Shown: positions 10,702-29,929 of the stretch, in pieces | How the letters are laid out: every line of letters begins with the position of its first letter | How positions within the stretch are numbered: the stretch's first letter is position 1 | Source: Candidatus Latescibacterota bacterium | GTDB lineage: Bacteria; Latescibacterota; UBA2968; GCA-2709665 | Reading direction: 5' to 3' | Length of the DNA: 64,000 nt | Assembly (NCBI GenBank): GCA_963667175.2 | Contig: CAXXXF010000002.1 | Coordinates: 256,001-320,000 of the forward strand | Program-made: the position numbers and the translations under genes | Notes under the pieces: generated by a model | The model's database searches: none | Seen by the model: only the letters and a program-made list of their open reading frames with translations | What the model was told of the DNA's origin: nothing

Positions 10702-10705
10702 TTCT

Positions 10706-12908: not shown

Positions 12909-14961
12909 ACGCAGAAATCTTTGATGCCGAAAGGCGTTGAGCACTTCGAATGAGAATGACTCCACACGAAAAGATCATGAACGCAGAAATCTTTGATGCC
13001 GAAAGGCGTTGAGCACAAAGAAACATCGAAGACGTCCAGGCAAATGACCTTGACGCAGAAATCTTTGATGCCGAAAGGCGTTGAGCACGGGAATGTCATT
13101 GTGGATCGGCAGTGGTTGGTGTATACGCAGAAATCTTTGATGCCGAAAGGCGTTGAGCACTCGATCGGTTCGCCGTCGATCCAGATCCGGCGCGCCAGAC
13201 GCAGAAATCTTTGATGCCGAAAGGCGTTGAGCACCCGTTGCCTGTTCCACTGCGCTCCCCTTTCGCTGCCTACGCAGAAATCTTTGATGCCGAAAGGCGT
13301 TGAGCACCGCTCAGGAAGTCGATTGGCAACGTCGTAGAAGCACGCAGAAATCTTTGATGCCGAAAGGCGTTGAGCACAAGAACATCCAGTCCGCGTATCA
13401 GCACGATACATACGCAGAAATCTTTGATGCCGAAAGGCGTTGAGCACTTGCGCCTCTGCTGGTCCAGCCGCTGGCTCGTGAAGCACGCAGAAATCTTTGA
13501 TGCCGAAAGGCGTTGAGCACCTGGTTGCGCGTTCGCGGATCACACGCCAGGCCCGCCGACGCAGAAATCTTTGATGCCGAAAGGCGTTGAGCACATGGGA
13601 GTGGGCAAGAGGACAGCCCACCCCCATCACACGCAGAAATCTTTGATGCCGAAAGGCGTTGAGCACATACCGAGGGCATTCGCCGCTTCTCTTCCTGCGA
13701 GGTTACGCAGAAATCTTTGATGCCGAAAGGCGTTGAGCACAAGACATCTGGAATTTGAGCGGATTGACGCGGGCGACGCAGAAATCTTTGATGCCGAAAG
13801 GCGTTGAGCACTATCAGACGACGGCCGGCTCGAACACCTTTCCGAACGACGCAGAAATCTTTGATGCCGAAAGGCGTTGAGCACAGGAAAAATCAAATGT
13901 CTTTGTAATGAATGGTGGATACGCAGAAATCTTTGATGCCGAAAGGCGTTGAGCACTATCAGGAATTCAAGGAGCGATTTCTTGTCAATCAACGCAGAAA
14001 TCTTTGATGCCGAAAGGCGTTGAGCACAATGATGCAACACCCGGCGCAACAGGGGGAAGTTGCAAACGCAGAAATCTTTGATGCCGAAAGGCGTTGAGCA
14101 CATCATGGTTGTTCCCCTTGTATGTGTTTGTTGCGCTACGCAGAAATCTTTGATGCCGAAAGGCGTTGAGCACGCTTTAGCTGATGGTTCCCGTAGATGG
14201 GTAGAGATTGACGCAGAAATCTTTGATGCCGAAAGGCGTTGAGCACTCCGATTGCCAGTAGACAATCGACGGCGTTTCGATAACGCAGAAATCTTTGATG
14301 CCGAAAGGCGTTGAGCACTCACAATCGCGGCTGCCGGCGAATCGATCGGCTCGACGCAGAAATCTTTGATGCCGAAAGGCGTTGAGCACGTTAAGAGTTC
14401 GCGGAAAGCCTGCTTGGCCGCCACGCAGAAATCTTTGATGCCGAAAGGCGTTGAGCACCCGCGATCAACCTGGAAAACCGGCTGCGGGTCGACGCAGAAA
14501 TCTTTGATGCCGAAAGGCGTTGAGCACTTAGTTGTGTGGCAAGGGAATAAGCCCAAGCCCGAACGCAGAAATCTTTGATGCCGAAAGGCGTTGAGCACAT
14601 TGATTGCGAATTTCCACTTGATGCCCGCATCTTCGACGCAGAAATCTTTGATGCCGAAAGGCGTTGAGCACGTAAACAGCCTGGAAGATCATCCAGAATC
14701 AATACACTACGCAGAAATCTTTGATGCCGAAAGGCGTTGAGCACTCCGATTGCCAGTAGACAATCGACGGCGTTTCGATAACGCAGAAATCTTTGATGCC
14801 GAAAGGCGTTGAGCACGACCGCCCGCAGTTGCAGGACGGTGTCGCGCAGATCGACGCAGAAATCTTTGATGCCGAAAGGCGTTGAGCACAACCCACATCG
14901 CACACCATCTGTGCCTTTGTTGCCGACGCAGAAATCTTTGATGCCGAAAGGCGTTGAGCAC
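12909..14961 (+). CRISPR. CRISPR array: 29 repeats and 28 spacers (repeat A)
   Basis: 36-bp ACGCAGAAATCTTTGATGCCGAAAGGCGTTGAGCAC with 33-38 nt spacers; spacers 19 and 26 are identical. Confidence 0.98.
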
Positions 14962-14998
14962 CCAATGACCATGGCTTGTTCGATAGTGGGGTGAAATC

Positions 14999-15562
14999 TT
15001 GACGCAAAAGGAAATCATCGCACGTCGCCCAAGGCTCAAAGTTCCGGATGAATTTCAGGATGAATGGGTGACTTTGGCCGACGTCGGGTTCGACGGGGAG
15101 TGGGTATCGCCGATTCAGAAGAAATCGAACAGCAGGAAAGGTCCGGTACTCGTAGCGAAACACTGGTTCGATGCGGAATCCGTGAATCTGAATCGAAAAG
15201 TCCTCGAGTGCTTCGGGTATCTGCCCGGCAATCCGTTCAACCGCGCACTTGACCGGGTTCTTGCGTCTGTCGGTCTTGAGCGTGGGGACGTCTACATCAC
15301 GCAGGCGTGCCACTTCCTGCCGAAGAACGACAAGCGGAAGAGAGTGCCGTCCAAATTGATGAAGCTTTCCGTGGAGACGGTGACCCGCCATGAAGTTGAG
15401 GGTCGGCGGGTGATCGCCTTGGGTGGCGAGGCACAGATGGCCTTGACGCGTGCCAATATTGGCTTCCTGCCGTGCCCGCATCCGAGTTCATCGGTCGCTG
15501 GACGATTCGAGGAATTGGCAGAAGCGCTTCGCGATTCGGCGCCGTTCGTCAGCGCCAGTTAG
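14999..15562 (+). CDS. Uracil-DNA glycosylase superfamily protein
   Basis: DVYITQACHFLP, RRVIALGGEA and PHPS motifs; paralog at 20777. Confidence 0.7.
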   Translation: MTQKEIIARRPRLKVPDEFQDEWVTLADVGFDGEWVSPIQKKSNSRKGPVLVAKHWFDAESVNLNRKVLECFGYLPGNPFNRALDRVLASVGLERGDVYITQACHFLPKNDKRKRVPSKLMKLSVETVTRHEVEGRRVIALGGEAQMALTRANIGFLPCPHPSSSVAGRFEELAEALRDSAPFVSAS

Positions 15563-15564
15563 TG

Positions 15565-15772
15565 ATCTCCCCTCGCTTCGGCGGCCTGCCTGCGCAGCGG
15601 TGTGCGCTGCAGGCAGGGGGGAGCGGATTGAAACCTCTCCCCGATCCCGTCCTACGGATGCCGGTTGTCGTATCTCCCCTCGCTTCGGCGGCGGGAGCGG
15701 ATTGAAACTTGTGTGAGATGTCCTCAGGACAGTCGAGGCAGGATCTCCCCTCGCTACGGCGGGGGGAGCGGA
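15565..15772 (+). CRISPR. Mini-array of a second repeat family (repeat B): 3 repeats, 2 spacers
   Basis: ATCTCCCCTCGCTTCGGCGGCGGGAGCGGATTGAAAC (37 bp) at 15672-15708; the copy at 15565-15634 has a 33-bp insert and the copy at 15743 is degenerate; spacers are 37 and 34 nt. Confidence 0.85.
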
Positions 15773-15804
15773 ATTCCTTTAAAGGAACAAGAGGGAGTCA
15801 ACAC

Positions 15805-16740
15805 ATTAGGCGAATCGTACTCAGCCGCAAGGGATTCGACTCGAGCCGCAAGGGATTGGAATCGCCGAACGGCGGCGTGCCCAGTCCCATTTTCCCGGAC
15901 GGTCGAATCCTTTCCTTGCCTATTCCGACTCCCAGGCGCTATCCTCAATCTTCGAAACGGTTTGACGACATTGTGTGGGATGGTAGATCGCTATCTCCGC
16001 TCGTGGAGAGTCTTAGTAAAGTTAGAGGTGAGTGTTGGTGCCACTTGGATCCGGATATTCGAGCAGATGCGATCCAACGGCAACCTGGATGGCGGCCGGC
16101 GTTCGGACAGGTTGATGGATCTCAATCCCAATTGGCCAATCAGGAAGTCTCTCAGGGCGACCTGTTCCTGTTTTTTGGTACATTCCGGCGTGTCGAAGAT
16201 GATGGCAGTGGAGGTTGGCGTTACGTCAGAACCGCACCGAAAGTCCATATGCTTTTTGGCTGGTTACAAGTGCAGGAGGTTTTGTCGTTTCGTACTAATG
16301 CCGACTACGACCGGGCACTTTGCAAGTATCCGTGGCTGTCGGACCACCCACATCTCCACAGATCATTTACGGAACGTGCCCACAGTCTTCGCAAGCTTCC
16401 GAACAACACCGTCTACCTGTCGAACCCGAAGCTCAATATACGGGGAATAGACCTACCGGGAGGTGGCGTATTTCAGAGTGAACACGGCCGTATCGTATTG
16501 ACTGATCCAGAGGAGGTTGGAAAAGGAGCACCCTGTCGGCCTTCGTACTGGAGGCTGCCCGAGTGGTTCTGGCCGGACAGCGATTATCGCCGGTTACGAC
16601 GCAAAGTCATGTTGCGGCGGCGCGACACGGAGTGGATCCATGTCGCCTCGGGAGGTAGGGGACAGGAGTTCGTAGTTGACGTACACGACGTCTCAGATGC
16701 CGCAAACAAGTGGGTGCGCAATCTGTTCGAAGATGCTTGA
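15805..16740 (+). CDS. Nmad3-like (nucleotide-modification-associated) protein
   Basis: IVLSRKGFDS..GGVPSPIFPDG..LSLPIP, CHLDPD, GDLFLFFG; start uncertain (ATT at 15805 after an SD, or in-frame TTG/ATG inside the mini-array). Confidence 0.7.
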   Translation: MRRIVLSRKGFDSSRKGLESPNGGVPSPIFPDGRILSLPIPTPRRYPQSSKRFDDIVWDGRSLSPLVESLSKVRGECWCHLDPDIRADAIQRQPGWRPAFGQVDGSQSQLANQEVSQGDLFLFFGTFRRVEDDGSGGWRYVRTAPKVHMLFGWLQVQEVLSFRTNADYDRALCKYPWLSDHPHLHRSFTERAHSLRKLPNNTVYLSNPKLNIRGIDLPGGGVFQSEHGRIVLTDPEEVGKGAPCRPSYWRLPEWFWPDSDYRRLRRKVMLRRRDTEWIHVASGGRGQEFVVDVHDVSDAANKWVRNLFEDA

Positions 16741-16767
16741 GCGGCACCAAGAGTCCGAGAGGTCGCG

Positions 16768-16803
16768 GCGCAGAAATCTTTGATGCCGAAAGGCGTTGAG
16801 CAC
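16768..16803 (+). CRISPR. Solitary repeat A
   Basis: 35/36 match to the array repeat, 1.8 kb downstream of the array. Confidence 0.92.
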
Positions 16804-16957
16804 GTGATAAAAGAGGCGAGTTGCGATTCTTGGCGATGCAGGCGTCTGGAATTTGAGGGATTGTAGTGGGTGATAGATCGTCTTTCCTGTGGAGTTTACC
16901 GTTCAATAAGAATCAGTCGATCCACGCAATGCAGTCTTAGTGATAAGGGGGGAGCCA

Positions 16958-17116
16958 ATGTCGACACACAAGCTGGAGATCGTACAGGTACTGGAAAAGT
17001 ATCCTGACGGGGCGCTGGTCGAGGAGTTGATGAAAGAAAGGCGGCGGATAAGGAAGTCCGAGACCGGATTGACGCTGCTCGCGTTTTTGCCCGCCAGTGG
17101 GACATCGTACGGGTAG
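16958..17116 (+). CDS. Small hypothetical protein (52 aa), possibly a remnant
   Basis: GGGGGAG SD then ATG; MSTHKLEIVQVLEKYPDGALVEELMKE... Confidence 0.4.
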   Translation: MSTHKLEIVQVLEKYPDGALVEELMKERRRIRKSETGLTLLAFLPASGTSYG

Positions 17117-17198
17117 ACCATTGTACTTTTCAACTGATGCTGTGAATTGGCAGGTGCGTCACCGTTAGGTAACCATGCACAGGTATTGTGCCCACTAA

Positions 17199-17286
17199 GG
17201 AGCGGTTTGAAATATCAAAACTCCAATGCAGGTGTTCAGTGACCCGTGGGAAATCGAGAATCTTCCATCAGAACAAGGATTGAAAA
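17199..17286 (+). CRISPR. Hybrid unit: repeat-B 3' remnant, 36-nt spacer, repeat C
   Basis: GGAGCGGTTTGAAAT, a spacer 30/36 identical to 23565-23600, then ...GAGAATCTTCCATCAGAACAAGGATTGAAA. Confidence 0.7.
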
Positions 17287-17503
17287 TACCCGTGGACAGG
17301 GTCTATTGATTCACTACAGAAGGCTTAGAAAGTACGAACGGTCTGGTTCCTGACGACGCTTTATGCTTAAAGTGCGGAGCAATCGGTTACGGTCAGTGCA
17401 CATGCCCTACACCGGCCCATTGCTGCGACTGAACGGCTCCAGGGGATCTACATTGCACCTGTGCCGTAGGACAGGGACCCGTGTGGTCAGACGAGGAGTA
17501 AAT

Positions 17504-18094
17504 ATGCTGATTTTAATTCTGCTCTCCGTGGGCTTAGCCCAGGCGGAGCTGCCAGAAGGTTTTTCTACCTGGGACTTGTCGATCAAAAAGGATCCCATCG
17601 AAGAAACGACAACTATACGGCTGACCCTGCATGGTGAGGCATTGGTGTATGTTAAGGGTCAGCGATATGGTAGAGAGTATGATCATTTTGGGGCGATCTC
17701 CTTTAGTTGTCATTTGTCCAGATATGCAAGCACAGTAGAAATGGGTGTATTGACCCATAAATCGTTCATATATGGTGTAGAGGAAGGGGACGCGGTGGAG
17801 CCAGCGTTCATGATTATGCGATATGATAGTAAAACGCCGAAGAAGATATTCGGATGGAAAACGACAAGGGTGAAAGGTCGGGATCTGCTTCTACCACCTG
17901 AGGGATTTATGAACGCATTCGTAGATACATTACGTAAAGGCGGACATTATGAATTGTTGTTAAGATCGGAATCGCCGTTTACTGGTAAGCGATGGACAAT
18001 GAAATTTAACGTCACTCACAGTAGACGAAACGTGATGAACTTTCTTAGAAAGTGTAAGGCTCACCGGAGGGATGATCACGGCTACAACTACTGA
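17504..18094 (+). CDS. Secreted hypothetical protein
   Basis: GAGGAG SD; signal peptide MLILILLSVGLAQA; lower GC. Confidence 0.7.
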   Translation: MLILILLSVGLAQAELPEGFSTWDLSIKKDPIEETTTIRLTLHGEALVYVKGQRYGREYDHFGAISFSCHLSRYASTVEMGVLTHKSFIYGVEEGDAVEPAFMIMRYDSKTPKKIFGWKTTRVKGRDLLLPPEGFMNAFVDTLRKGGHYELLLRSESPFTGKRWTMKFNVTHSRRNVMNFLRKCKAHRRDDHGYNY

Positions 18095-18188
18095 GCATTT
18101 GAATAGCGCCATATTTCTTCCTGCTCAAGCAGTTGAAGATATAGAGAAGGATGATTGGTATCGCGGACACCTGCGAACGCGCACGTAA

Positions 18189-18225
18189 CCCGTTGAGAAT
18201 CTTCCATCGGAACAAGGGTAGAAAC
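18189..18225 (+). CRISPR. Solitary repeat C
   Basis: CCCGTTGAGAATCTTCCATCGGAACAAGGGTAGAAAC. Confidence 0.7.
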
Positions 18226-18280
18226 TTGCCCAAACCAGAAAACGGGCGACAAAGTAGCTGATGGGGCTCTCTACTTAGAT

Positions 18281-18598
18281 TTGGACGGTGGAGAATTAGG
18301 CAAAACGGTCTTGTCCGTCGAAGGCGGAAACATCCGACCGTCGGATTTACAAGACCTGCAAGGGGTGTTACATTCCGATCCAGATGCCCGCCTTTCCGGT
18401 TTCCTTTCGTTGAATGAACCCACAAAGGCAATGGGAAAGGCTGTCAGTTCAGATGGACAATGGAGTTACAAGGGCGAGACCTACGACAAAATTCAGTTGC
18501 TCACCGTTCGTGACGTGGTCGACGGGAAGCGGTTGTTCCAGACGCCTACCAGCCTGAAATACAAGGATTACCACTTGCAGGAAACGATCCGGTTTTAG
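18281..18598 (+). pseudogene. C-terminal fragment of an Mrr-like restriction endonuclease domain (as found in MTase-REase fusions)
   Basis: SVEGGNIRPSDLQDLQG..GFLSLNEPTKAM..YDKIQLLTV resembles that domain; N-terminal part missing. Confidence 0.55.
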
Positions 18599-18686
18599 AT
18601 CTCCAATTCGGGAAGAAGACATATGCGACCGAATCTCGCGCAGGTCAAGTCGTTTATTCTATCCGAGTTTCCTGAGTTACTGCCAG

Positions 18687-18944
18687 ATGGCCATTGAAGA
18701 CGGATGGTCTTTTTTCTATAAAGAGATAAGAAAAGGACGCGACTCCACCCGAATCGCCCGCGTCAAGCAGGCGAGCTCAAACAGTAAAATAGATTTCAAA
18801 CCTGCTGTTACTGCCAGAATAACGGGAGATGAACGATTGAGGGTTGAGATAACAACTGACTGGGAGAACGAGATTCGCAACGTAACCGAACGGGAGTTGG
18901 AACTTTGGGAGTGCCATTTCGGGAAACAGGATTGGCAATTTTAA
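18687..18944 (+). CDS. Hypothetical protein, possibly frameshifted from an ATG near 18623
   Basis: ORF with plausible composition; a short upstream ORF has an SD-like sequence. Confidence 0.4.
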   Translation: MAIEDGWSFFYKEIRKGRDSTRIARVKQASSNSKIDFKPAVTARITGDERLRVEITTDWENEIRNVTERELELWECHFGKQDWQF

Positions 18945-18990
18945 ACCCAAAACGCACCAGCCCGTCTCTTAATTTCGTCCTGCGCGCGTG

Positions 18991-19028
18991 ATTTCCCCTC
19001 GCTTCGGCGGGGCACGAGGGATTGAAGC
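18991..19028 (+). CRISPR. Solitary degenerate repeat B
   Basis: ATTTCCCCTCGCTTCGGCGGGGCACGAGGGATTGAAGC. Confidence 0.7.
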
Positions 19029-19153
19029 TAGTCCACGGGGGCGATCCGTAAGGGTATCGGGTCGCCCCCTACGTGGTGCGTGGGCTGAAAAAGCGCCGCC
19101 ACGCTTATTTACAGGTAACCCGTTTCCACTCCATACTTCGACAAGGAGGTCCG

Positions 19154-19741
19154 ATGGACACGAGTGAATTGTACGAATTTAGCCAGGGTCTGGAGTCGCT
19201 GATCCGAAAACCGACCGATCTGCGACCCTTCGTATGTGAGGGTTCGCCTCTTGCATGTGATGCGTTCCTCGTGGGTATCAATCCCGCGAGCGAAATGTCG
19301 GATGACTTCTGGGATTTCTGGTCGGACAGTTATGGATTCGACAAGAGCGCGTGGTTTGAGAAGTACAAGGAGGAGCGAAGAACTCGCCCGCTGAAACTCG
19401 GAAGGAAGAGAAGGAATGAAGTAAGCAACACACGCAGAATCATCGAGGAGGTCGTTTTGGGCGCCAATCCCGTCAAATGTCTTGAGACGAACATATACGC
19501 GAAAGCGACGAAACAGGCATCGGACCTGGACGAGCAAAACAGAATCACGGCGCCCTTCGACTATCTCTTGCGCGAGATAGCGCCGAAGTTGGTGATTGCC
19601 CACGGCAAGGACGCTGCCGAGTACCTGCAAGCGCAGGACCTACCGTGCAAACTCAGGTGTGTCAAACATTTCCGACTCTGGTCCAAGCAGAACGCGCGAG
19701 ATCTAGGGTTGAGTATTCGCAGGTATTGTGAGGGAGAGTAG
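19154..19741 (+). CDS. Divergent UDG-superfamily protein
   Basis: FLVGINPA motif 1, LETNIY, PKLVIAHGKDA, C-terminal KHF; AGGAGG SD. Confidence 0.6.
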   Translation: MDTSELYEFSQGLESLIRKPTDLRPFVCEGSPLACDAFLVGINPASEMSDDFWDFWSDSYGFDKSAWFEKYKEERRTRPLKLGRKRRNEVSNTRRIIEEVVLGANPVKCLETNIYAKATKQASDLDEQNRITAPFDYLLREIAPKLVIAHGKDAAEYLQAQDLPCKLRCVKHFRLWSKQNARDLGLSIRRYCEGE

Positions 19742-19887
19742 CGGGACCGCGCGTGAAAACCCGCCTCGGGTTCACAGCCCATTCGCTTCGCCGGTTGACG
19801 TCCAAAGTCGCTAGGCGAGCCACGCCCGCTGAGATTCCTGCATAAGTAACGAGGTTTGACCGGAACGAAGGATGAAGGGGTCTATGG

Positions 19888-20751
19888 ATGATCAAGATAG
19901 TCAGTTGGAACATCGACAACCGAATGCAGCCGTGGTGCGAACTGGTGCGGATGGCGCAGGACGGCGAGGCCGACCTGGCGCTCCTGCAGGAAGCGGGTGG
20001 CCCGCCAGGCGACCTTGTACATCTGGTCGAATACGATGATGCGGTGTTTTGGAACCGCCAACTTTACGACCGATGGCCACTGGTCGTGAAGTTGTCCGAT
20101 CGAATAGCAGTCGAACATTACCGACAGGTGCCGCCGATCAGCGAACTTGGTATGAGCGACATTGGCGTGAGCGGTATCGGGACCATCGCCGCCGCGAGGG
20201 TGATCCCTTACGAAAGTGAAGATGAGGCCTTCGTCGCTGTCTCCATGTACGCGCGCTGGCTGAAGCCGCATCCGTCTACGGATAGCCCATGGAAAGTCGG
20301 TTACTCGGATGCGTCGGCACATCGAGTTATTTCGGACCTATCGGCTTTCATCGGTCACACCAACCCGTCCAGACACAGGATTCTGGCGGCAGGCGACCTG
20401 AACATGTTTTACGGGGCAACCGGCACGAGACTGTCACTGCCGGAACGTGAGCGCACGGTCTGGGATCGAATGAAATCGCTCGGACTGGAATTTTTGGGAC
20501 CGCAGGTTCCTTGCGGACGACCCGCACCGACTGCGCCGGACGACGTACCTTGCGATACGAAGAATGTACCGACGTACTACAAGGTTGGAGAATGCCCGGA
20601 AAAGGCGACGAATCAATTGGACTACGCATTTGCGTCGCACGGCTTCCACGAAAGGGTTTCAGTACGGGCGATGAACGAGATTTGCGAATGGGGATGCAGC
20701 GACCACTGCAGGCTGATCATTGAGGTAAAGACGAACGCCGATAGCGCCTGA
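19888..20751 (+). CDS. Endonuclease/exonuclease/phosphatase (EEP) family protein
   Basis: SWNI, DLALLQE, AGDLN, LDYAF, SDH. Confidence 0.85.
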   Translation: MIKIVSWNIDNRMQPWCELVRMAQDGEADLALLQEAGGPPGDLVHLVEYDDAVFWNRQLYDRWPLVVKLSDRIAVEHYRQVPPISELGMSDIGVSGIGTIAAARVIPYESEDEAFVAVSMYARWLKPHPSTDSPWKVGYSDASAHRVISDLSAFIGHTNPSRHRILAAGDLNMFYGATGTRLSLPERERTVWDRMKSLGLEFLGPQVPCGRPAPTAPDDVPCDTKNVPTYYKVGECPEKATNQLDYAFASHGFHERVSVRAMNEICEWGCSDHCRLIIEVKTNADSA

Positions 20752-20776
20752 CAGAGTTGCGCCACGAGGTGAAACC

Positions 20777-21316
20777 ATGGAACGAGAGGACATAATCGAA
20801 CGTCGCCGAAGCCTTCAAGTTCCGGACGAATTTCAGGATGAATGGATGACATTAGCCGACGTCGGGTTCGACGGTGAGTGGGTATCGCCAATTCAGAAGA
20901 TATCGAACAGCATGAGGGGTCCGGTACTCGTAGCAAAGCACTGGCTCGACGCCGAATCCGTGGATCTGAATCGGGAAGTCCTCGAATGCTTGGGATATTT
21001 GCCTGGCAACCGATTCAATCAGTCTCTTAATCGGGCCCTGGCAAATGTCGGGAAAGCACGTGGGGACGTCTACATTACACAGGCGTGCCACTTCCTACCG
21101 AAGGACGACAAGCGGAAGCGAGTGCCGGCCGAATTGATGAAACTTTCCGTGAAGGAGGTGACCCGCTATGAAGTTGAGGGTCGAAGGGTCATTGCGTTGG
21201 GTGGTGAGGCTCAGTTGGCCCTGGAGCGTTTCGGTATTGATTTTCTGCCGTGCGCGCATCCGAGTTCATCGGTCACTGGACGATTCGAGGAATTGGCAGA
21301 TGCGATTCGAGATTAG
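20777..21316 (+). CDS. UDG-superfamily protein (paralog of 14999)
   Basis: Colinear and highly similar to 14999-15562. Confidence 0.7.
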   Translation: MEREDIIERRRSLQVPDEFQDEWMTLADVGFDGEWVSPIQKISNSMRGPVLVAKHWLDAESVDLNREVLECLGYLPGNRFNQSLNRALANVGKARGDVYITQACHFLPKDDKRKRVPAELMKLSVKEVTRYEVEGRRVIALGGEAQLALERFGIDFLPCAHPSSSVTGRFEELADAIRD

Positions 21317-21341
21317 GCGCCGTTCGTGGGCTCTATCCCAA

Positions 21342-21451
21342 ATCTCCTCTCGCTTCAGCGGTGGGAACGGATTGAAACGCGTCGCGCCGCTCGCAGATGG
21401 AGTGGATGGCGGCGCCCAGCGAGAGCCTTCCATCAGAACAAGGATTGAGAC
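21342..21451 (+). CRISPR. Hybrid unit: repeat B, 36-nt spacer, repeat C
   Basis: B at 21342-21378 (37 nt), spacer 21379-21414, C CCCAGCGAGAGCCTTCCATCAGAACAAGGATTGAGAC at 21415-21451. Confidence 0.8.
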
Positions 21452-21456
21452 TGCTT

Positions 21457-21633
21457 ATGCCGCAAGATATCCGAAATCGACAGGAACCGGCCGCCTTCCA
21501 GGTCTGGCATCCGGATGGGACGCCCTTTTCCGATGATGACTATCGAAAGGCCGGAATGCCTGTACCAACCCCCGAGCAGATCGCTCACTGGGCTGAGATG
21601 GACCGAAGTTTCGCCGATCCGGATACTGACTGA
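21457..21633 (+). CDS. Repeat-C-linked microprotein (58 aa), copy 1
   Basis: MPQDIRNRQEPAAFQVWHPDGTP...YRKAG..PTPEQIAHWAEMD; three standalone copies plus one fused domain. Confidence 0.7.
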   Translation: MPQDIRNRQEPAAFQVWHPDGTPFSDDDYRKAGMPVPTPEQIAHWAEMDRSFADPDTD

Positions 21634-21653
21634 GGCTTGATCGGATACATCCG

Positions 21654-21689
21654 CCCAGAGAAATCGTCCATCAAAGAATGGATTGAAGC
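21654..21689 (+). CRISPR. Degenerate repeat C
   Basis: CCCAGAGAAATCGTCCATCAAAGAATGGATTGAAGC. Confidence 0.55.
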
Positions 21690-22522
21690 TGCCCAACGGG
21701 CTGCGTCCGGACGGAGGACCTGAACTTGTGACTGGCGCCAACTACGACACTCCCTGGTGGCCGCTTATATACGACCAGTGGAACGAGCGGGGCGATAGGC
21801 AGCAGACGCACCAGCGCGAGTTCCAATTCTACAGCATGCAGCTCACCGGAGAGGCGGGTCCGATCCTCGAAACGGCTTGCGGCACTGGTTCGATTCTGCT
21901 TCGCCTTTGGCGCCACGGCGTTGACATAAGGGGTTTCGATTGCGCCGCAGGGATGCTGGCCGTTCTGCGGCGCAAGGCAGCGGCTCTGGGGCTGGGCGAT
22001 ATCGACCGCCGCGTTGGCTGTCAAGACCTCGTTGACTTCTGCTACGACCAGTCCTTTGCAGCCATTCTGATTCCGGCCAGTTCGTTCATGCTCTTACCCA
22101 CACAGTCGGCCCAAATCACCTGTCTCGAACGCATTCGCGCGCATATGGCACCTGGCGGGCGGCTACTGATGAATTTCTACATCCCGTCGCTTGCCGACGA
22201 CCTGCTTGCCCACATCGCCCCGTCCCCGTCGCTGGAAACATTCGGCGAATTCATCCACCCCCAAACAGGCCGCCAAATCAGCGTCCGCTTCAAAAAGATC
22301 GTCGATCTGGGCGAGCAGACTGAGCACTACGAGTGGTTTTTTCTCTACGACGGAGAAACTGCAGCCGTGCCCATGACTGCGCGGTGGATCTACAAAGAAG
22401 AATTTCAGCTATTGCTGCGTCTGGCAGGATTTAGCCGCTGGCGGCTTTCTGGCACCCACGACGGCCAGCCGTACACAGGTTCAAAGGAGATTGGGACGAC
22501 GTACTGGGTCGTCGAACGCTGA
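21683..22522 (+). CDS. Class I SAM-dependent methyltransferase
   Basis: ILETACGTGS motif I; the true start may be GTG at 21728. Confidence 0.88.
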   Translation: MKLPNGLRPDGGPELVTGANYDTPWWPLIYDQWNERGDRQQTHQREFQFYSMQLTGEAGPILETACGTGSILLRLWRHGVDIRGFDCAAGMLAVLRRKAAALGLGDIDRRVGCQDLVDFCYDQSFAAILIPASSFMLLPTQSAQITCLERIRAHMAPGGRLLMNFYIPSLADDLLAHIAPSPSLETFGEFIHPQTGRQISVRFKKIVDLGEQTEHYEWFFLYDGETAAVPMTARWIYKEEFQLLLRLAGFSRWRLSGTHDGQPYTGSKEIGTTYWVVER

Positions 22523-22851
22523 GCGGATCAGTACCTGCAAACGGTGGTGACCGTTTGGTAAGCTGGTTAGGGTCTGCCAGCACCGTTGGTTGAAAGACGA
22601 TAGGTATTGTTCGCTACTGCATCAGGGGATACTTCAAGGCGATTCAGTTCGCCACGGCGAGACACAATCGACTGGGTTCCCTGCCTGGCCAATGCGTGAT
22701 GGCGACCCGCCGGAAATCTGGTTTCAGCTGGACAAAGGACGACCTCTCCAACATGATCGACAAGACTTTGAAGTGGGACGTGGATTGAAGCTGCTGCGGG
22801 GTTTATCCCAGGGGACGGACTGTATCACGCGACACAGGAGGAGATGACCCA

Positions 22852-23538
22852 ATGTGCGGTCGATTTACCCAGATGATGTCCTGGGGTGAGCTCCATTGGC
22901 TTTACAGCCTGTCCGAACACTCGGAATCGCTGGAGTTGCAATCCCGCTATAACGGCGCGCCGACCCAGGATTTCGCGGTCTGCCGCCTGGACGGAAACGG
23001 CAACCGGGAGATCGACAGGCTGCAATGGGGTCTGGTACCCGCGTGGTCCAAAGACGTCAGAATCGGCGCCCGCATGATCAACGCACGGGCCGAAAGCGTA
23101 CACGAGAAACCGGCATTCGGCGCCGCCTTTCGGGCGCGCCGGTGCCTGGTGCCGGCCGACGGGTGGTTCGAGTGGCAAGCAGCAGGGAGCGCCAGACAGC
23201 CCTACTTCCTGGCGCTCGCGGACGGGTCGACGCTGTCGTTCGCCGCGCTGTGGGAACGCTGGGATAGAGGCGGCGCCGCCCTGGAGTCATTTACCATCAT
23301 CACCACGGCCGCCGACGAAGCGCTTTCCAACGTCTACCATCGCCAGCCTGCCGTCATCAATCCCGAACACTTCTCCGTCTGGCTCGACAACGAATCATCC
23401 GCGGCGACGTTGCTGGATCTGGTTCGCTATCCTCGCGCGGGACCGTACGAAATACGCGCCATCGGCGCTCGCGTAAACAATGTCCGAAACGACGATCCGG
23501 ACGTTCTCCTGCCCACGTCCCAGCAGCGCCTGTTCTAA
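22852..23538 (+). CDS. SRAP/HMCES/YedK abasic-site protein
   Basis: MCGRF catalytic N-terminus, INARAES, RCLVPADGWFEW, HHRQP. Confidence 0.95.
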   Translation: MCGRFTQMMSWGELHWLYSLSEHSESLELQSRYNGAPTQDFAVCRLDGNGNREIDRLQWGLVPAWSKDVRIGARMINARAESVHEKPAFGAAFRARRCLVPADGWFEWQAAGSARQPYFLALADGSTLSFAALWERWDRGGAALESFTIITTAADEALSNVYHRQPAVINPEHFSVWLDNESSAATLLDLVRYPRAGPYEIRAIGARVNNVRNDDPDVLLPTSQQRLF

Positions 23539-23546
23539 GTCCACAC

Positions 23547-23637
23547 GGGAGAGCGGATTGAAACGACAAAACACCAGTGCCGGTGGTCAGTGACCCGTGG
23601 CCCAGTGAGAGTCTTCCATCAGAAAAAGGATTGAGAC
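23547..23637 (+). CRISPR. Hybrid unit: repeat-B 3' half, 36-nt spacer, repeat C
   Basis: GGGAGAGCGGATTGAAAC, spacer 23565-23600, then CCCAGTGAGAGTCTTCCATCAGAAAAAGGATTGAGAC. Confidence 0.75.
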
Positions 23638-23642
23638 TGCCT

Positions 23643-23837
23643 ATGCCGCAAGATATCAGAAATCGCCAGGAGCCCGCCGCCTTCCAGTGCTGGCATCCGG
23701 ACGGTACCCCTTACTCGCCGGCAGACTATCGAAAGGCCGGGATGCCTGTCCCGACCCCCGAGCAGATCGCCCACTGGGCTGAGATGGACCGAATATTCGC
23801 CGATCCGGTGAGAATTGTCAATCAGAACAAGAAGTGA
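23643..23837 (+). CDS. Repeat-C-linked microprotein, copy 2
   Basis: Near-identical to 21457; the stop codon lies inside the downstream degenerate repeat C. Confidence 0.7.
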   Translation: MPQDIRNRQEPAAFQCWHPDGTPYSPADYRKAGMPVPTPEQIAHWAEMDRIFADPVRIVNQNKK

Positions 23838-23912
23838 AACAGCGAATCCGTCCCAATCCTCGCCTGGACGATCGATGTCTCCCCTCGCTTCGGCCGGGGA
23901 GCGGATTGAAAC
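23804..23912 (+). CRISPR. Hybrid unit: degenerate repeat C, 36-nt spacer, repeat B
   Basis: TCCGGTGAGAATTGTCAATCAGAACAAGAAGTGAAAC, spacer 23841-23876, then GTCTCCCCTCGCTTCGGCCGGGGAGCGGATTGAAAC. Confidence 0.7.
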
Positions 23913-23991
23913 GTCGCCGCAATGTCCCCGCGCCCTTGTGAAAAGGCGAAGTCGACGGGGCGGTACGTGGCGCCAATGGAGGTGAATAACA

Positions 23992-25257
23992 ATGCTATTC
24001 AGACTTACTCGAGATGGAGATAAGAACGGTTTTCAGCCATATGTCGAAACGTCAGCATCAGACTTGCAACTCACCGAAAAGAACCTGGAAACCTGGATGG
24101 CGCTGCACCCTGAGTTGCTTTTTGGAAGCGAGCAAGTCCTTGTGATCAGCCAGTCAGTCGCAGGTCAGAGCATGGGCGACATTCTGGCGTTAGACGCCGA
24201 TGGATGTTTAGTGATCGTCGAGATTAAGCGGGACTGGTCCGATAGAGCGACGGTTGGCCAAATCCTGGAATATGCGGCCGAAATGACCGGGAAATGTTAT
24301 GAGGACCTGGAGAAACTGCATCACAGCTACTGGATCAAACAACACTCGAATTGTAATTATGCATCCTTGCTGACGCGGTTTCAAACCCTGACCGACAACC
24401 ACGAATGTGATGAGGACGATATTCCGAGACGTCAAAAAGGTCATCGAATTCTAGTCGTCGCACCGGCTGCTGACGAGGGCCTGATGAGGATTGTAGAGTG
24501 GCTTAGAGAGTATGGTGTGCCGATCAGCTTTGTGCCTTTCACGATCCATGCAGATACGGAAAGCAAAGACATCTTGCTGGAGCTAGAGCCGCTCCCCGAG
24601 GCTCAGTCGTTCGGAGAAATGGTAGACAGTCAGGAATGGCGTGGAGATTGGATCTTTAATACGAACGAAACTTACGCCCCAGGCGCATACCGAAAGATGT
24701 TTGATCAACGCGTAATTGCTATCCACGGATATGAGAGCGGTCCAGCCAATCTGACAGGTAGTGCCGAAGGGCAGCGGGTATTCGCTTATGTAAATCGCAA
24801 AGGTGTCCTGGCGGTGGGTCGTATCGTTAACGGCCAACCGGTTTCGGGGACAACCGTGTTTGGCGAGGAACGCGAGTTCCATGTGAAGGTCGTCTGGGAG
24901 ACAATCGTGGACGATGACAGGGGAATGACATTACGGGACGTCAGCGAAGAAAAAGGTTACAATCTCCCTGTTCGATGTGTCTTTGCTCGCATGAATCGTC
25001 CCGATGCCGCCGATTGGATCGCCGACGAACTGCAAAGCAGGATGGATAAACGTAATCCTGGACGTAGAGGCTCAAGATTCTCAGACCCTATCGTCGGCCG
25101 CGCCTGGCATGCCGACGGCACGCCTTTTGGTGAGGAAGACTACAGGAGAGCGGGCTTGTATGTCCCCACCGAGGAACAATTGGCCGCGTGGGAGAAGGCG
25201 GATGCCGAACGCGACGCGCTACCGCCCGGTGAGAATCTACCGCCAGAACAGGAATGA
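23992..25257 (+). CDS. NucS/EndoMS-like PD-(D/E)xK nuclease with a putative PUA/EVE-like domain and a C-terminal microprotein domain
   Basis: EKNLETW, DILALD..LVIVEIKR..VGQILEYA; FAYVNRKGVLAVGRI; C-terminal WHADGTP..DYRRAG..PTEEQLAAW. Confidence 0.75.
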   Translation: MLFRLTRDGDKNGFQPYVETSASDLQLTEKNLETWMALHPELLFGSEQVLVISQSVAGQSMGDILALDADGCLVIVEIKRDWSDRATVGQILEYAAEMTGKCYEDLEKLHHSYWIKQHSNCNYASLLTRFQTLTDNHECDEDDIPRRQKGHRILVVAPAADEGLMRIVEWLREYGVPISFVPFTIHADTESKDILLELEPLPEAQSFGEMVDSQEWRGDWIFNTNETYAPGAYRKMFDQRVIAIHGYESGPANLTGSAEGQRVFAYVNRKGVLAVGRIVNGQPVSGTTVFGEEREFHVKVVWETIVDDDRGMTLRDVSEEKGYNLPVRCVFARMNRPDAADWIADELQSRMDKRNPGRRGSRFSDPIVGRAWHADGTPFGEEDYRRAGLYVPTEEQLAAWEKADAERDALPPGENLPPEQE

Positions 25258-25260
25258 AGC
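25225..25260 (+). CRISPR. Degenerate repeat C overlapping the nuclease stop codon
   Basis: CCCGGTGAGAATCTACCGCCAGAACAGGAATGAAGC. Confidence 0.55.
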
Positions 25261-25404
25261 AGCAGTGGTCGGTGGTCCGTGTCAGTGACCAGTCCGAAAG
25301 CCGGATGATGTACGGGAAGGTGCATGCGCGCCTGCGGATGCCGGCTTCCAGCTCAATTCCGTGGGTCTTCAAAGCCGAAATGAATCCGGGGAGGCAGGGA
25401 AACC

Positions 25405-26277
25405 ATGAAAATCGTTTTCAGTCGCAAGGGATTCGACTCGACCCGCAGGAGATCTGAATCGCCGAACGGCGGCGTGCCCAGTCCCATCTTTCCGGACGGC
25501 GCCGCCCTGTCCCTGCCAATTCCGCAACACGGAAGTCGGACGCGCTACGGGGACGTACAGTGGCGCGGCGAGTCGATCGGTCCGATTGTGGAGTGCTTGA
25601 CTGAGGGTCGAGTGAAGCAAGGTGATTGTTGCCATCTCGACCCCGATCTGAACGCCGATGCCCTTGCGCGCTTGCCCGGATGGCGGCCGGCCTTCGGGCA
25701 GTCACAGGCCGCTCAGAGCCATCTGAAAAACGAGGGTGTCGAACCCGGGGACCTCTTTCTGTTCTTCGGCTGGTTCCGCGCCGTGGAACCCGGCAAAGGA
25801 GGCATGTGGCGGTACGTTTCAGACGCCCGGGACGTACACAGGCTGTTCGGTTGGCTCCAGGTTTCCGAGGTCGTGCCCGTCGGGGCGGATCTCGCCCGCG
25901 CCCGGTCCGAGCGGCCGTGGCTATCCAGGCATCCGCATCTGAATAGGGATAGGGACAACAACACGATCTACATCGCAAGGGAGAAACTTGACGTCGAGGG
26001 CGTGACTGCGCGGAGCGACGCAGGCCTGTTTTCCGGCAACGGCGACCGATTCACACTGACGGCGCCGGGTTCCAGGACCCGCTCCAATTGGCGGTTGCCT
26101 TGGTGGTTCTATCCCTCAAACGGTCGTCCAACGCTCAGCTACCACGGCAATGGGGATCGCTGGCAGCACGCGAAACCGTGGGTATACCTGGACACGGTCG
26201 GCATCGGGCAGGAGTTCGTGTTCGACGCCGGCGGGATCCCGGAAGCAAACGTCTGGTTGCGAGAACTGTTCAGGTGA
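25405..26277 (+). CDS. Nmad3-like protein
   Basis: MKIVFSRKGFDS, CHLDPD, GDLFLFFGWF, GQEFV. Confidence 0.75.
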   Translation: MKIVFSRKGFDSTRRRSESPNGGVPSPIFPDGAALSLPIPQHGSRTRYGDVQWRGESIGPIVECLTEGRVKQGDCCHLDPDLNADALARLPGWRPAFGQSQAAQSHLKNEGVEPGDLFLFFGWFRAVEPGKGGMWRYVSDARDVHRLFGWLQVSEVVPVGADLARARSERPWLSRHPHLNRDRDNNTIYIAREKLDVEGVTARSDAGLFSGNGDRFTLTAPGSRTRSNWRLPWWFYPSNGRPTLSYHGNGDRWQHAKPWVYLDTVGIGQEFVFDAGGIPEANVWLRELFR

Positions 26278-29895: not shown

Positions 29896-29929
29896 ACTCC
29901 TACCGCTTTCCCCCTCGACTTTTCAGCCA

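What the first reader, a model, noticed from the sequence alone, without database searches (positions are those of the whole stretch)
14962..26277. CRISPR-repeat-punctuated gene-cassette array continuing from the CRISPR array
Seen: about 15 genes and gene fragments, all on the + strand like the array, mostly separated by + strand CRISPR-like repeats of three families. A: 16768. B (hairpin, ending ATTGAAAC): 15565, 15672, 15743, 17199, 18991, 21342, 23547, 23877. C (CTTCCATCAGAACAAGGATTGARAC): 17250, 18189, 21415, 21654, 23601, 23804, 25225. Several genes sit like giant spacers between repeats, and paralogous genes carry the same flanking repeat (both UDG paralogs are followed by B). Established: repeats ending ATTGAAAC/ATTGAGAC are typical of class 1 arrays processed by Cas6 or Cas5d. 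Inference: an integron-like cassette system in which repeats act as recombination or capture sites and/or Cas6/Cas5d processing sites for a leader-driven defence transcript. I do not know of a description of this architecture.
Basis: partly seen in the sequence, partly recalled or inferred. Interest (0 to 1): 0.92.

Follow-up and report, generated by a model that had tools for sequence, protein, structure and literature searches.

The report
Gene cassettes separated by solitary CRISPR repeats
Downstream of a normal CRISPR array, about fifteen mostly DNA-repair or defence-type genes on the same strand are separated by single CRISPR repeats of two other CRISPR types, a layout shared by related sponge-associated bacteria and not found described in the literature searched.

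Summary
The window holds a type I-MYXAN cas operon and a 30-repeat array (repeat A). The array's last "spacer" is 1,806 bp and holds two genes plus a three-repeat mini-array. Behind it, 12 of 15 gene junctions carry solitary repeats. Family B is a type I-C repeat and family C a type I-B repeat: both form long arrays beside matching cas operons in sister genomes. This genome has neither those arrays nor those cas genes. The same layout (array, then same-strand UDG, Nmad3, EEP, NucS-like and 58-aa genes separated by solitary C and B repeats) recurs in at least 13 relatives, several assembled in 1-3 contigs, so it is not an assembly artefact. Gene-sized modules are shuffled between genomes. Solitary C repeats evolve about three times more slowly than 4-fold sites of the adjacent gene. 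Best reading: a cargo island of "repeat + gene" modules reshuffled by repeat-mediated recombination. There is no integrase, no crRNA-like promoter target and no RNA evidence. Homology breakpoints are not enriched at repeats beyond what any intergenic position gives. This is a new variant of standalone CRISPR-repeat elements with cargo genes.

The parts
4238..12657 (+). Type I-MYXAN (I-B variant) cas operon: cas6/cmx6, cas3, cas8a1/cmx1, cas7/devR, cas5/devS, cas4-cas1, cas2
   Evidence: NCBIfam; Pfam
12909..14961 (+). CRISPR array A: 29 identical 36-nt repeats, all starting with A
   Evidence: Rfam CRISPR-DR33 at 33 bits, below the gathering score of 39
14962..16767 (+). 1,806-bp 'giant spacer' between the last two A repeats, holding UDG1, the B mini-array and Nmad3a
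   Evidence: the closest relative with the same array has a 36-nt spacer at this position
14999..15562 (+). UDG-superfamily gene 1 (TTG start)
   Evidence: Pfam PF03167, E 7.7e-09
15565..15775 (+). Mini-array of three type I-C (B) repeats (15565-15634 with a 33-nt insert, 15672-15708, 15743-15775) with 37- and 34-nt spacers
   Evidence: 15670-15708 matches Rfam CRISPR-DR9 at 27 bits, below gathering
15709..16740 (+). Nmad3 gene a. The Pfam match starts at residue 35. The likely start near 15805 reads ATT here and GTG in G012
   Evidence: Pfam PF18754, E 5e-57
16768..16803 (+). Terminal repeat of array A. It starts with G, as do all 27 repeats of G012
16958..17116 (+). 52-aa ORF of unknown family, conserved at 87% nucleotide identity in G012
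17198..17286 (+). B 3' fragment (17198-17213), a conserved 36-nt linker containing a palindrome, then C repeat (17250-17286)
   Evidence: (family D11)
17504..18094 (+). 196-aa ORF with a hydrophobic N-terminus, GC 45%, no family found
18189..18225 (+). C repeat
18281..18944 (+). Two short ORFs (105 and 85 aa) without a family; possibly gene fragments
18991..19027 (+). B repeat with a degenerate 3' part
19154..19741 (+). Divergent UDG-like gene 3
   Evidence: Pfam E 0.0018, below cut-off
19824..19859 (+).
   Evidence: score 18 against a shuffle maximum of 12
19888..20751 (+). Endonuclease/exonuclease/phosphatase (EEP) gene. In most relatives it is bracketed by C repeats
   Evidence: Pfam
20777..21316 (+). 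UDG gene 2, paralogue of UDG1
   Evidence: (family D5, 80%)
21342..21451 (+). B repeat (21342-21378), 36 nt, then C repeat (21415-21451)
21457..21633 (+). 58-aa WHPDGTP protein, copy 1. The C repeat ends 5 nt before its ATG
21653..21689 (+). Degenerate C repeat
21683..22522 (+). SAM-dependent methyltransferase
   Evidence: Pfam; weak PADLOC mad2 match
22852..23538 (+). SRAP (YedK-like) gene. It lies at an unlinked locus in 13 relatives; three of those loci were checked for flank synteny and two others were scanned and found free of repeats
   Evidence: Pfam E 3e-64
23549..23637 (+). B 3' fragment (23549-23564), the conserved linker, then C repeat (23601-23637)
23643..23837 (+). WHPDGTP protein, copy 2 (64 aa). 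It reads into the next C repeat
23804..23912 (+). C repeat (23804-23840), then B repeat (23877-23912)
23992..25257 (+). NucS-like PD-(D/E)xK protein with a C-terminal WHxDGTP domain; matches the PADLOC defence candidate PDC-S11
25224..25260 (+). Degenerate C repeat overlapping the stop codon. Together with about 145 nt of conserved leader it precedes Nmad3b
25405..26277 (+). Nmad3 gene b
   Evidence: Pfam E 4e-76
26278..36108 (.). Second half of the island: MazF/PemK toxins and antidote genes on the - strand, HTH genes, further Nmad3 copies and fragments, and a peptidase S51 gene, with segmental duplications
36146..36364 (+). C repeat (36146-36182), then WHPDGTP protein copy 3 (36185-36364). 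The conserved chromosomal flank starts near 36590

Best explanation
The stretch is the array-side part of a roughly 21-kb cargo island (14962 to about 36400) at a CRISPR-cas hot spot shared by a clade of Latescibacterota-labelled genomes. The island is built from same-strand modules, each a gene with a solitary 37-nt CRISPR repeat beside it. The repeats are genuine. Family C is the type I-B repeat and family B the type I-C repeat of sister species, which carry those arrays and cas operons at their copy of the island locus. This genome now carries a type I-MYXAN system there and has no cognate Cas6b or Cas5c. Its B and C repeats therefore belong to the modules and are not products of the resident array. 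All modules and arrays share the same direct repeats. Inferred mechanism: the ordinary repeat-to-repeat recombination that duplicates and deletes spacers in arrays also duplicates, deletes and swaps whole genes, with occasional illegitimate joins. The result behaves like an integron without an integrase. Shown here: the architecture, its conservation, the shuffling of modules, the heterologous origin of the repeats and the constraint on them. Inferred: the recombination mechanism, and that the genes (UDG-like, Nmad3, EEP, methyltransferase, SRAP, NucS-like) act against invading DNA with modified bases.
For: 1. B and C form canonical arrays beside I-C and I-B cas genes in relatives. G000 has no such array and no such cas genes.
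2. The layout recurs in 13 relatives for which I fetched the locus, from three genera (G001-G003, G006, G007, G009-G013, G015, G016), several of them 1-3-contig assemblies.
3. In the 21 sources scanned, every C hit lies on its locus's array strand, including the 78 solitary-like copies. Genome-wide, 22 of 23 C-bearing genomes have C on one strand only.
4. Homology blocks are gene-sized and occur in a different order in each genome. EEP has a C repeat on at least one side in 6 of the 8 relatives that carry it.
5. The last spacer position of array A holds 1,806 bp with two genes and a mini-array, where G012 has a 36-nt spacer.
6. SRAP lies at unlinked loci in 13 relatives: flank synteny was checked in 3 and absence of repeats in 2 others. 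Here it sits between repeats, with homology ending within 24 nt of the ORF.
7. Tandem C-small-ORF units with 219-246-nt periods occur in G009 and G010, as expected from repeat-unit duplication.
8. In G015, 4 of 7 solitary copies carry the array's own core variant against 7 of 71 elsewhere. One of these combines a solitary-type 5' part with the array-type core.
9. Metagenome contigs join cassettes at C repeats: 19754>17256 and 25235>23612, each with 76 nt on the shorter side.
10. GC content differs between cassettes, 45-63%.
Against: Endpoints of homology blocks lie within 12 nt of a repeat edge in 10 of 50 clusters. That is more than a uniform null (4.0, P 0.005) but not more than an intergenic null (14.2, P 0.93). 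Repeats are therefore not shown to be the crossover points.
The right junction of the giant spacer is a 5-nt microhomology (GCGCA) that removed the cassette's own C repeat.
Solitary C repeats are under constraint: p-distance 0.22 (core 0.16) against 0.61 at 4-fold sites of the adjacent ORF. They are equally conserved with or without a resident C array (22.15 against 22.10 of 25). This points to a direct function that recombination alone does not explain.
Gene adjacency is broken between genomes even where no repeat is seen.
Contig joints with short sides may come from arrays of other organisms.
The native SRAP site of G000 lies at a contig end, so a second copy cannot be excluded.
Confidence: 0.45

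Rival explanations
1. RNA-level or expression function. The island is read through from the array, or each repeat is a portable expression signal, and the solitary repeats act on the transcript. They could be Cas6b or Cas5c cleavage sites that release and define mRNAs in genomes with the cognate system. They could also be Cas-independent translation or promoter elements, since AAGGA in the repeat lies 9-12 nt before the ATG of the small ORF. This is compatible with the best explanation and may be the reason the repeats are conserved.
For: The C repeat ends 2-5 nt before the start codon in 19 of about 24 small-ORF copies that were found independently of the repeat. The small ORF also directly follows terminal repeats of B and C arrays in G011, 13 and 5 nt after them. 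The first gene follows the terminal array repeat by 37 nt here and by 27 nt in G015. All repeats and all genes in the first 11 kb share the array's strand. Constraint is strongest in the 25-nt core that array repeats of different species also conserve. Terminator-like sites are not in excess (16 against 15.2 expected).
Against: G000 and at least five relatives keep near-consensus C repeats without any C array, and G000 has no Cas6b. Cmx6 of G000 shows no detectable similarity to Cas6b of G009. Only the small ORF shows tight spacing; other genes start 20-170 nt after the repeat. There are no RNA data. No sigma-70-like promoter was called at the repeats.
Confidence: 0.3
2. Pure relics. The hot spot has hosted I-B, I-C and I-MYXAN systems in turn. 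B and C copies are decaying leftovers of former arrays into which genes happened to insert, with no present function.
For: Many copies are degenerate or are only 3' fragments. Cognate cas genes are absent in G000. For the one orthologous pair compared between G000 and G012, the repeat diverged about as fast as synonymous sites: 7 of 37 by my own count of the two copies printed, against dS 0.23. Different cas subtypes occupy the locus in different species.
Against: Across 105 pairs, repeats are far less diverged than 4-fold sites (0.22 against 0.61). This includes the 12-nt 5' part, which was not used to find them (0.35). Solitary copies share a 5' consensus (CCCGGTGAGAAT) that differs from the resident array repeat in G009, G011 and G015. 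The repeat has a stereotyped position before the small ORF.
Confidence: 0.15
3. crRNA-like regulators (CreA, CreR or CRISIS type). Each solitary repeat gives a crRNA-like RNA whose pseudo-spacer guides Cascade to repress the promoter of the neighbouring cargo genes.
For: Cargo defence and toxin-antitoxin genes followed by a solitary repeat unit inside CRISPR-cas loci are the published pattern. UDG1 and UDG2 are directly followed by a type I-C repeat. Some repeat-linker-repeat units have conserved linkers.
Against: None of the 19 pseudo-spacers in the window matched any site in 12300-38000 above shuffled controls, apart from paralogous copies. For 101 solitary repeats in 13 relatives' loci, all 16 seed hits were paralogous copies behind another repeat or the same place fetched twice; none lay next to a PAM in a promoter. 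G000 lacks the effector.
Confidence: 0.05
4. Assembly artefact or ordinary insertion-sequence interruption of arrays.
For: G000 is an 18-contig assembly. The native SRAP site lies at a contig end. In G002 two gene-sized gaps interrupt the array, and the 5.5-kb gap is nested IS21, IS5-like and IS630-like elements.
Against: The same architecture occurs in relatives listed as 1-3 contigs (G007, G009, G012, G013, G015, G016). Independent contigs of run X1 span 22745-25659 and 17256-18719. No transposase lies between 14962 and 26277.
Confidence: 0.03

Closest known systems
Standalone CRISPR repeat-like elements and mini-arrays with cargo genes in CRISPR-cas loci (Shmakov et al. 2023 preprint, PMC10120712; I read the abstract and sections 20 and 24)
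   Same: [quoted passage not shown]
   Different: There the repeats match the resident system and carry spacers partly complementary to promoters. Here they belong to subtypes that this genome lacks, form long same-strand series in the array trailer with one repeat per gene junction, and show no target.
CRISIS, CRISPR-supervised immune systems (Shu et al. 2024 preprint, 10.1101/2024.12.27.630466; I read the abstract and part 1 of Main)
   Same: Defence genes directly followed by a solitary type I-C repeat unit. UDG1 and UDG2 here are followed by a type I-C repeat.
   Different: CRISIS genes lie between cas3 and cas5c, and their solitary repeat unit targets their own promoter beside a TTC or TTA PAM. 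Here there is no I-C effector, no target, and the genes lie behind the array.
Integrons
   Same: An array of same-strand, variable gene cassettes, each bounded by a short conserved site, next to a fixed platform.
   Different: No IntI integrase. The boundaries are CRISPR repeats, not attC hairpins. The capture mechanism is not shown.
RNA anti-CRISPRs (Racr; Camara-Wilpert et al. 2023, PMC10651486; search listing and abstract only)
   Same: Solitary repeat units of CRISPR subtypes encoded outside arrays.
   Different: Racrs lie on phages and plasmids. Here the locus is chromosomal and syntenic, and neither the C repeat nor the small ORF was found in the viral collection.
CRISPR arrays interrupted by insertion sequences
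   Same: Gene-sized inserts between identical repeats, as in G002.
   Different: The inserts in the window hold no transposase, only UDG, Nmad3 and similar genes plus a heterologous mini-array.

Membership tests
Type I-B CRISPR repeat (family C) | Forms regularly spaced arrays beside a type I-B cas operon with Cas6b | tested here: met
   Arrays of 37-76 repeats with a 72-77-nt period in G009, G015 and G011. Cas6b, Cas7/Cst2, Cas5b, Cas3 and Cas4 lie upstream in G009. Not met in G000 itself, which has only solitary copies.
Type I-C CRISPR repeat (family B) | Hairpin repeat in arrays beside cas3-cas5c-cas8c-cas7 (Csd2) | tested here: met
   13-37 repeats counted per array in G013, G010, G011 and G007. 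Cas5c, Cas8c, Csd2 and Cas3 in G013. G000 has only a 3-repeat mini-array and solitary copies.
Canonical CRISPR array (the punctuated series as a whole) | Identical repeats separated by unique spacers of about 25-50 nt | tested here: not met
   Intervals are 0.07-2.3 kb, are coding, and mix three repeat families. Only 12909-14961 and 15565-15775 qualify.
Integron | IntI tyrosine recombinase next to the cassette array | tested here: not met
   The three PF00589 matches in G000 lie on contigs C15, C6 and C12; none is on C2.
Integron | attC sites (imperfect inverted repeats) at cassette ends | tested here: not met
   Cassette ends carry CRISPR repeats. I saw no long inverted repeat in C when reading it; I did not fold it.
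Integron | Same-strand cassettes whose content varies between relatives | tested here: met
   15 of 15 genes on +; module order differs in every relative.
crRNA-like regulatory solitary repeat or mini-array (CreA, CreR, CRISIS) | Pseudo-spacer partly complementary to a promoter beside a PAM | tested here: not met
   None of 19 and none of 101 pseudo-spacers has a non-paralogous seed match of 14 or more of 15 within the loci held.
crRNA-like regulatory solitary repeat or mini-array (CreA, CreR, CRISIS) | The repeat matches the resident effector's own repeat | tested here: not met
   G000 has I-MYXAN and I-G systems only.
Racr (RNA anti-CRISPR) | Encoded on a phage, plasmid or other mobile element | tested here: not met
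   No match in viral contigs for the C core or the small ORF. The island lies between cas genes and a flank conserved in 5 relatives.
Anti-phage defence island | Clustering of known or candidate defence genes | tested here: inconclusive
   PDC-S11 match for the NucS-like gene. MazF toxins and antidote genes. NMAD and UDG appear among predicted defence domains in passages of PMC13092281. Most of the genes have no PADLOC hit.

The most novel reading that the evidence does not exclude
A CRISPR-derived analogue of the integron. Whole genes would be captured into repeat-bounded 'giant spacer' positions, either by the adaptation integrase Cas1-Cas2 acting on long DNA or by repeat recombination. They would be transcribed from the array leader and cut out of the pre-crRNA by Cas6b or Cas5c as individual mRNAs. 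The lineage-specific 58-aa WHPDGTP protein always starts 2-5 nt after a repeat and is also fused to a NucS-like nuclease. It would be a repeat-coupled factor, for example a repeat-binding protein, or a protein whose translation reports whether Cas6 is active.
Probability: 0.12. Interest if true: 0.95.

Novelty: new variant of a known kind. Interest (0 to 1): 0.72.

Why it matters
Standalone CRISPR repeats are known mainly as single regulators inside cas operons. Here they punctuate a long, conserved, same-strand series of cargo genes and belong to CRISPR subtypes that the genome itself lacks. They are nevertheless under sequence constraint. If repeats drive the shuffling, CRISPR arrays would be a second, integrase-free route to cassette-type gene exchange, and a way to link adaptive immunity with innate defences such as glycosylases and nucleases aimed at modified DNA. 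If they act on RNA, the locus would be a natural case of Cas6-defined mRNAs. Either result is testable with sponge metatranscriptomes or simple reporter assays. The gene set (UDG-like, Nmad3, EEP, NucS-like, a new 58-aa protein) is also a candidate source of new defence functions.

Tried and rejected
crRNA-like regulation: pseudo-spacer target searches found only paralogous copies.

Repeat-anchored breakpoints: the endpoint test did not beat an intergenic null.

Phage origin: no match for the C core or the small ORF in viral contigs. Two scans of metagenome contigs for C patterns found nothing.

Expression: no RNA holder was listed for the stretch. The runs laid were contigs only, so ends and strands could not be read.

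The small protein: no Pfam family, no PDB fold match (model pLDDT 72), no Atlas hit, and only 13 plus 2 protein clusters.

Promoter and terminator scan: no excess.

The supposed C tail at 22760-22790 is not above chance.

Giant gaps in the G002 array looked like a second example of gene-sized spacers. The 5.5-kb gap is nested insertion sequences; the two ORFs of the 1.6-kb gap match no Pfam family.

SRAP capture is unresolved, because G000's native site lies at the end of contig C8.

Cross-processing of C by the resident Cmx6 could not be assessed beyond the lack of similarity to Cas6b.

Supplementary files of the papers were not seen; those of PMC10120712 and of the CRISIS preprint list loci and could contain similar cases.

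Literature searches for this architecture returned no description of it. For Nmad3, one search returned one unrelated paper and one search returned passages in PMC13092281.

Full report
ANATOMY. The window carries two identical IS110 copies. After them comes a cas operon typed by NCBIfam as type I-MYXAN: cas6/cmx6, cas3, cas8a1/cmx1, cas7/devR, cas5/devS, cas4-cas1 and cas2, at 4238-12657. An array of 29 identical 36-nt repeats follows at 12909-14961. A thirtieth copy lies at 16768-16803. It starts with G instead of A, as do all 27 repeats of the closest relative with this array, G012. Behind it comes sequence homologous to G012's array trailer (16822-16880 by eye; blastn block 16915-17186). 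It is therefore the terminal repeat of the array. The 1,806 bp between it and repeat 29 occupy a spacer position, where G012 has a 36-nt spacer. This "giant spacer" holds a UDG-superfamily gene, a three-repeat mini-array of family B with 37- and 34-nt spacers, and an Nmad3 gene.

Further along the + strand come the following genes:
- a 52-aa ORF and a low-GC 196-aa ORF;
- two short ORFs;
- a divergent UDG-like gene, an EEP nuclease gene and a second UDG gene;
- a 58-aa ORF, a SAM methyltransferase and SRAP;
- a second small ORF;
- a NucS-like protein that matches the PADLOC candidate PDC-S11 and ends in the small-ORF domain;
- a second Nmad3 gene.
12 of the 15 gene junctions carry at least one B or C repeat. 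The island continues to about 36400 with MazF toxins and antidote genes, HTH genes, more Nmad3 copies, a peptidase S51 gene and a third "C repeat + small ORF" unit at 36146-36364. A flank conserved in five relatives begins near 36590.

THE REPEATS ARE REAL AND NOT CHANCE. In the 5.5-Mb assembly, the C core at 19 or more of 25 matches occurs 7 times in the island, always on +, and twice elsewhere. One of the two is a further solitary C on contig C3, next to S51 and Nmad3 fragments. The B 3' part at 15 or more of 16 matches occurs 5 times in the island and nowhere else. G000 has no B or C array. Its only other array is a type I-G locus on contig C13 with a fourth repeat family.

WHAT B AND C ARE. 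A DNA search of 40 relatives matched 27 of them, 28 of 41 genomes when G000 is counted. Mapping the fetched loci showed B as arrays with a 71-77-nt period (13-37 repeats counted per array) beside cas3-cas5c-cas8c-csd2 (type I-C) in G013, G010, G011 and G007. C forms arrays of 37-76 repeats beside cas6b-cas8b-cas7(Cst2)-cas5-cas3-cas4 (type I-B) in G009 and G015, plus an array without an obvious leader in G011. Local tblastn with those Cas proteins found nothing in G000 except distant matches to its own cas3 and cas7 genes. The control genomes for one search did not respond, which is why I ran. In a sample of 151 genomes of the phylum, C occurs in 23, all within one order. In 22 of these 23 every copy lies on one strand. 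Twelve genomes have only 1-7 copies, that is, solitary copies only.

THE ARCHITECTURE IS CONSERVED. In 13 relatives for which I fetched the locus (G001-G003, G006, G007, G009-G013, G015, G016; three genera), the array is A, B or C depending on the species. It is followed on the same strand by UDG, Nmad3, EEP, NucS-like and small-ORF genes separated by solitary C and B repeats. In G010 a solitary A-like repeat also occurs. Several of these genomes are listed as 1-3 contigs, so an assembly artefact is excluded. Blocks of homology to the window are gene-sized and occur in a different order in each genome. EEP, for example, follows the terminal array repeat in G015. It has a C repeat on at least one side in G007, G010, G016, G003 and G012, and follows UDG3 here and in G012. 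Cassette GC content ranges from 45 to 63%, against 59-60% for the genome.

SOLITARY REPEATS TRAVEL WITH THE MODULES AND ARE CONSTRAINED. Seventy-eight solitary-like C copies (18 or more of 25 matches) were found in 21 sources, none of them on the strand opposite the arrays. They share a full 37-nt consensus, CCCGGTGAGAAT plus the core. Its 5' part differs from the resident array repeat in G009, G011 and G015 and is closest to the G002 array type. For 15 "repeat + small ORF" units (105 pairs) the p-distance is 0.22 for the repeat, 0.16 for its core, and 0.35 for the 5' part, which was not used to find the repeats. At 4-fold degenerate sites of the adjacent ORF it is 0.61. Ascertainment bias is limited. 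When small ORFs were found by tblastn alone, 19 of about 24 had a C repeat (27-35 of 37 matches) ending 2-5 nt before the ATG. Conservation does not depend on a resident C array: 22.15 against 22.10 of 25. In one orthologous pair between G000 and G012, the repeat diverged about as fast as synonymous sites (my count of 7 of 37 from the copies printed, against dS 0.23). The constraint is therefore a family-wide statement and is not shown for every lineage.

THE SMALL ORF. It is a real gene. dN/dS is 0.08-0.27 in 11 of the 12 pairs for which it could be computed, and 0.52 in the twelfth, a near-identical pair; in two further pairs dS was saturated. The invariant residues include the H and G of the WHPDGTP motif, DY and AHWA (H18, G21, P23, D28, Y29, A32, P37, P39, A43-A46); W17, P19, D20 and P35-T38 are 90% or more conserved. 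The family is rare: 13 clusters of similar length and 2 longer ones among 5.8 billion proteins. It has no Pfam family, no PDB fold match and no Atlas hit. Record titles of the related loci name Candidatus Latescibacterota or Gemmatimonadota MAGs. One copy lies in a Binatia MAG, without repeats. Units of "C repeat + small ORF" occur in tandem with 219-246-nt periods in G010 and G009. In G011 the ORF directly follows the terminal repeats of both the B and the C array.

TESTS OF MECHANISM.
(a) crRNA-like regulation. None of the 19 pseudo-spacers in the window and none of 101 in relatives has a non-paralogous seed match. Not supported.
(b) Integron. There is no tyrosine recombinase on the contig.
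(c) Mobile-element or Racr origin. No viral match.
(d) Breakpoints. 10 of 50 endpoint clusters lie within 12 nt of a repeat edge. This exceeds a uniform null (4.0) but not an intergenic null (14.2), so the result is inconclusive.
(e) Junction detail. Nmad3a cassettes of four genomes lose homology to the window at 16771-16772, the first bases of the A repeat. In the other genomes about 45 more nt and a degenerate C repeat follow. The overlap is GCGCA, a microhomology join.
(f) Exchange between array and solitary repeats. In G015, 4 of 7 solitary copies (one of them the array's terminal repeat) carry the array's core variant, against 7 of 71 elsewhere. One of these has a solitary-type 5' part (the copies are not independent).
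(g) Metagenome contigs. Joints 19754>17256 (run X1) and 25235>23612 (run X4), each with 76 nt on the shorter side, place different cassettes next to the same C repeats. Other joints have sides under 30 nt and may come from arrays of other organisms. Run X1 also has a 236-nt insertion at 22744/22745, about the size of one "C repeat + small ORF" unit; I could not see its letters.
(h) SRAP. It lies at unlinked loci in 13 relatives. In the three checked, the flanks match the end of G000's contig C8. Two others were scanned and held no B or C repeats. In G000 the only copy sits in the island, with homology limited to the ORF plus 24 nt upstream and 1 nt downstream. It could have been moved or copied; this cannot be decided because C8 ends there.

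READING. The shuffling, the duplications in repeat-sized registers, the chimeric repeats and the giant spacer fit best with "repeat + gene" modules handled by the recombination dynamics of arrays. That reading has a confidence of 0.45. Pure decay is less likely (0.15). The gene content suggests defence against DNA with modified bases. This is inference from family names: UDG, Nmad3, EEP, SRAP, a NucS-like PDC-S11 match, and passages in PMC13092281 that list NMAD and UDG among predicted defence domains. What Nmad3 does is not known to me beyond its Pfam name.

COMPARISON WITH WHAT IS KNOWN. [quoted passage not shown] So are defence genes followed by type I-C solitary repeat units that repress them (CRISIS preprint). 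The present locus differs in four ways. The repeats are from subtypes that are not resident in the genome. They form long same-strand series behind the array, with about one repeat per gene junction. No target complementarity is found. Protein-coding "spacers" occur in tandem. Five literature searches found no description of this. The supplementary tables of the two preprints were not available to me.

Noticed in passing
L013:3523-3538 and L012:14135-14150: In two type I-C loci (G007, G013) the ribosome-binding site and TTG start of cas2 contain a 16-of-16 match to the 3' end of the I-C repeat (GAGAGCGGATTGAAAC). This could be an autoregulatory handle-like element or chance.
   Followed up: partly
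L047 (G002:C5:18000-34000): A type I-B array of 37 repeats, 36 identical and the terminal one changed at one base, is split by inserts of 5.5 kb and 1.6 kb. The larger insert is nested IS21, IS5-like and IS630-like elements. The two ORFs of the smaller insert match no Pfam family.
   Followed up: partly
window 745-3795: Two copies of an IS110-family element (446-aa ORFs at 805-2145 and 2455-3795, both on the - strand) lie directly upstream of cas6. The copies are 1,650 bp apart, and every repeat family aligned between them (D4, D10, D14, D19) is 100% identical.
   Followed up: no
window 14247 and 14745: Array A contains the same 36-nt spacer twice (spacers 19 and 26), with 93% identity over 127 nt around them. 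This is evidence of repeat-mediated duplication within the array.
   Followed up: no
window 15585-15617: A 33-nt palindromic insertion splits the hairpin of the first B repeat. Contigs of runs X1, X2 and X3 show small indels there.
   Followed up: no
G000:C13:48238-68000 (L033, L034): A second CRISPR-Cas locus, type I-G, with two Cas3g genes, two Csb2-like genes and a Cas3-extension protein. Its array, read on the minus strand, uses a fourth repeat family ending ATTGAAGC.
   Followed up: partly
G000:C3:320278-320958: A solitary C repeat outside the island, followed by fragments of a peptidase-S51-like gene and of the 3' end of an Nmad3 gene. No array lies nearby.
   Followed up: partly
window 25261-25404; L011 about 3830-3917; L017 about 8200-8304 and 12880-13062: A conserved leader of about 145 nt between a C repeat and Nmad3b-type genes. 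It contains three CAGTG repeats and the palindrome GGTCAGTGACC. Related palindromic linkers sit between the B fragments and C repeats at 17214-17249 and 23565-23600. No Rfam family matched.
   Followed up: partly
L015:16051 and 10237-17042: In G011 the 76-repeat C array begins inside a truncated ORF with no recognisable leader. It is bracketed by two copies of the unit 'small ORF + C repeat + gene fragment'; the second small ORF is frameshifted.
   Followed up: partly
window 25405-33032: Three copies of a module made of an Nmad3 gene on + and a HigA-like antidote gene on -, at about 25405-27889, 29751-30629 and 31633-33032. One Nmad3 copy is reduced to a fragment.
   Followed up: no
L044 (Binatia MAG record): A 74-aa homologue of the WHPDGTP protein in another phylum, with no C or B repeat within 3 kb. 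The protein can therefore exist without the repeat.
   Followed up: partly
window 21743-22527: The methyltransferase cassette has much higher and more polymorphic contig depth in runs X1-X4 than its neighbours. This suggests that related copies exist in other organisms of those samples.
   Followed up: no
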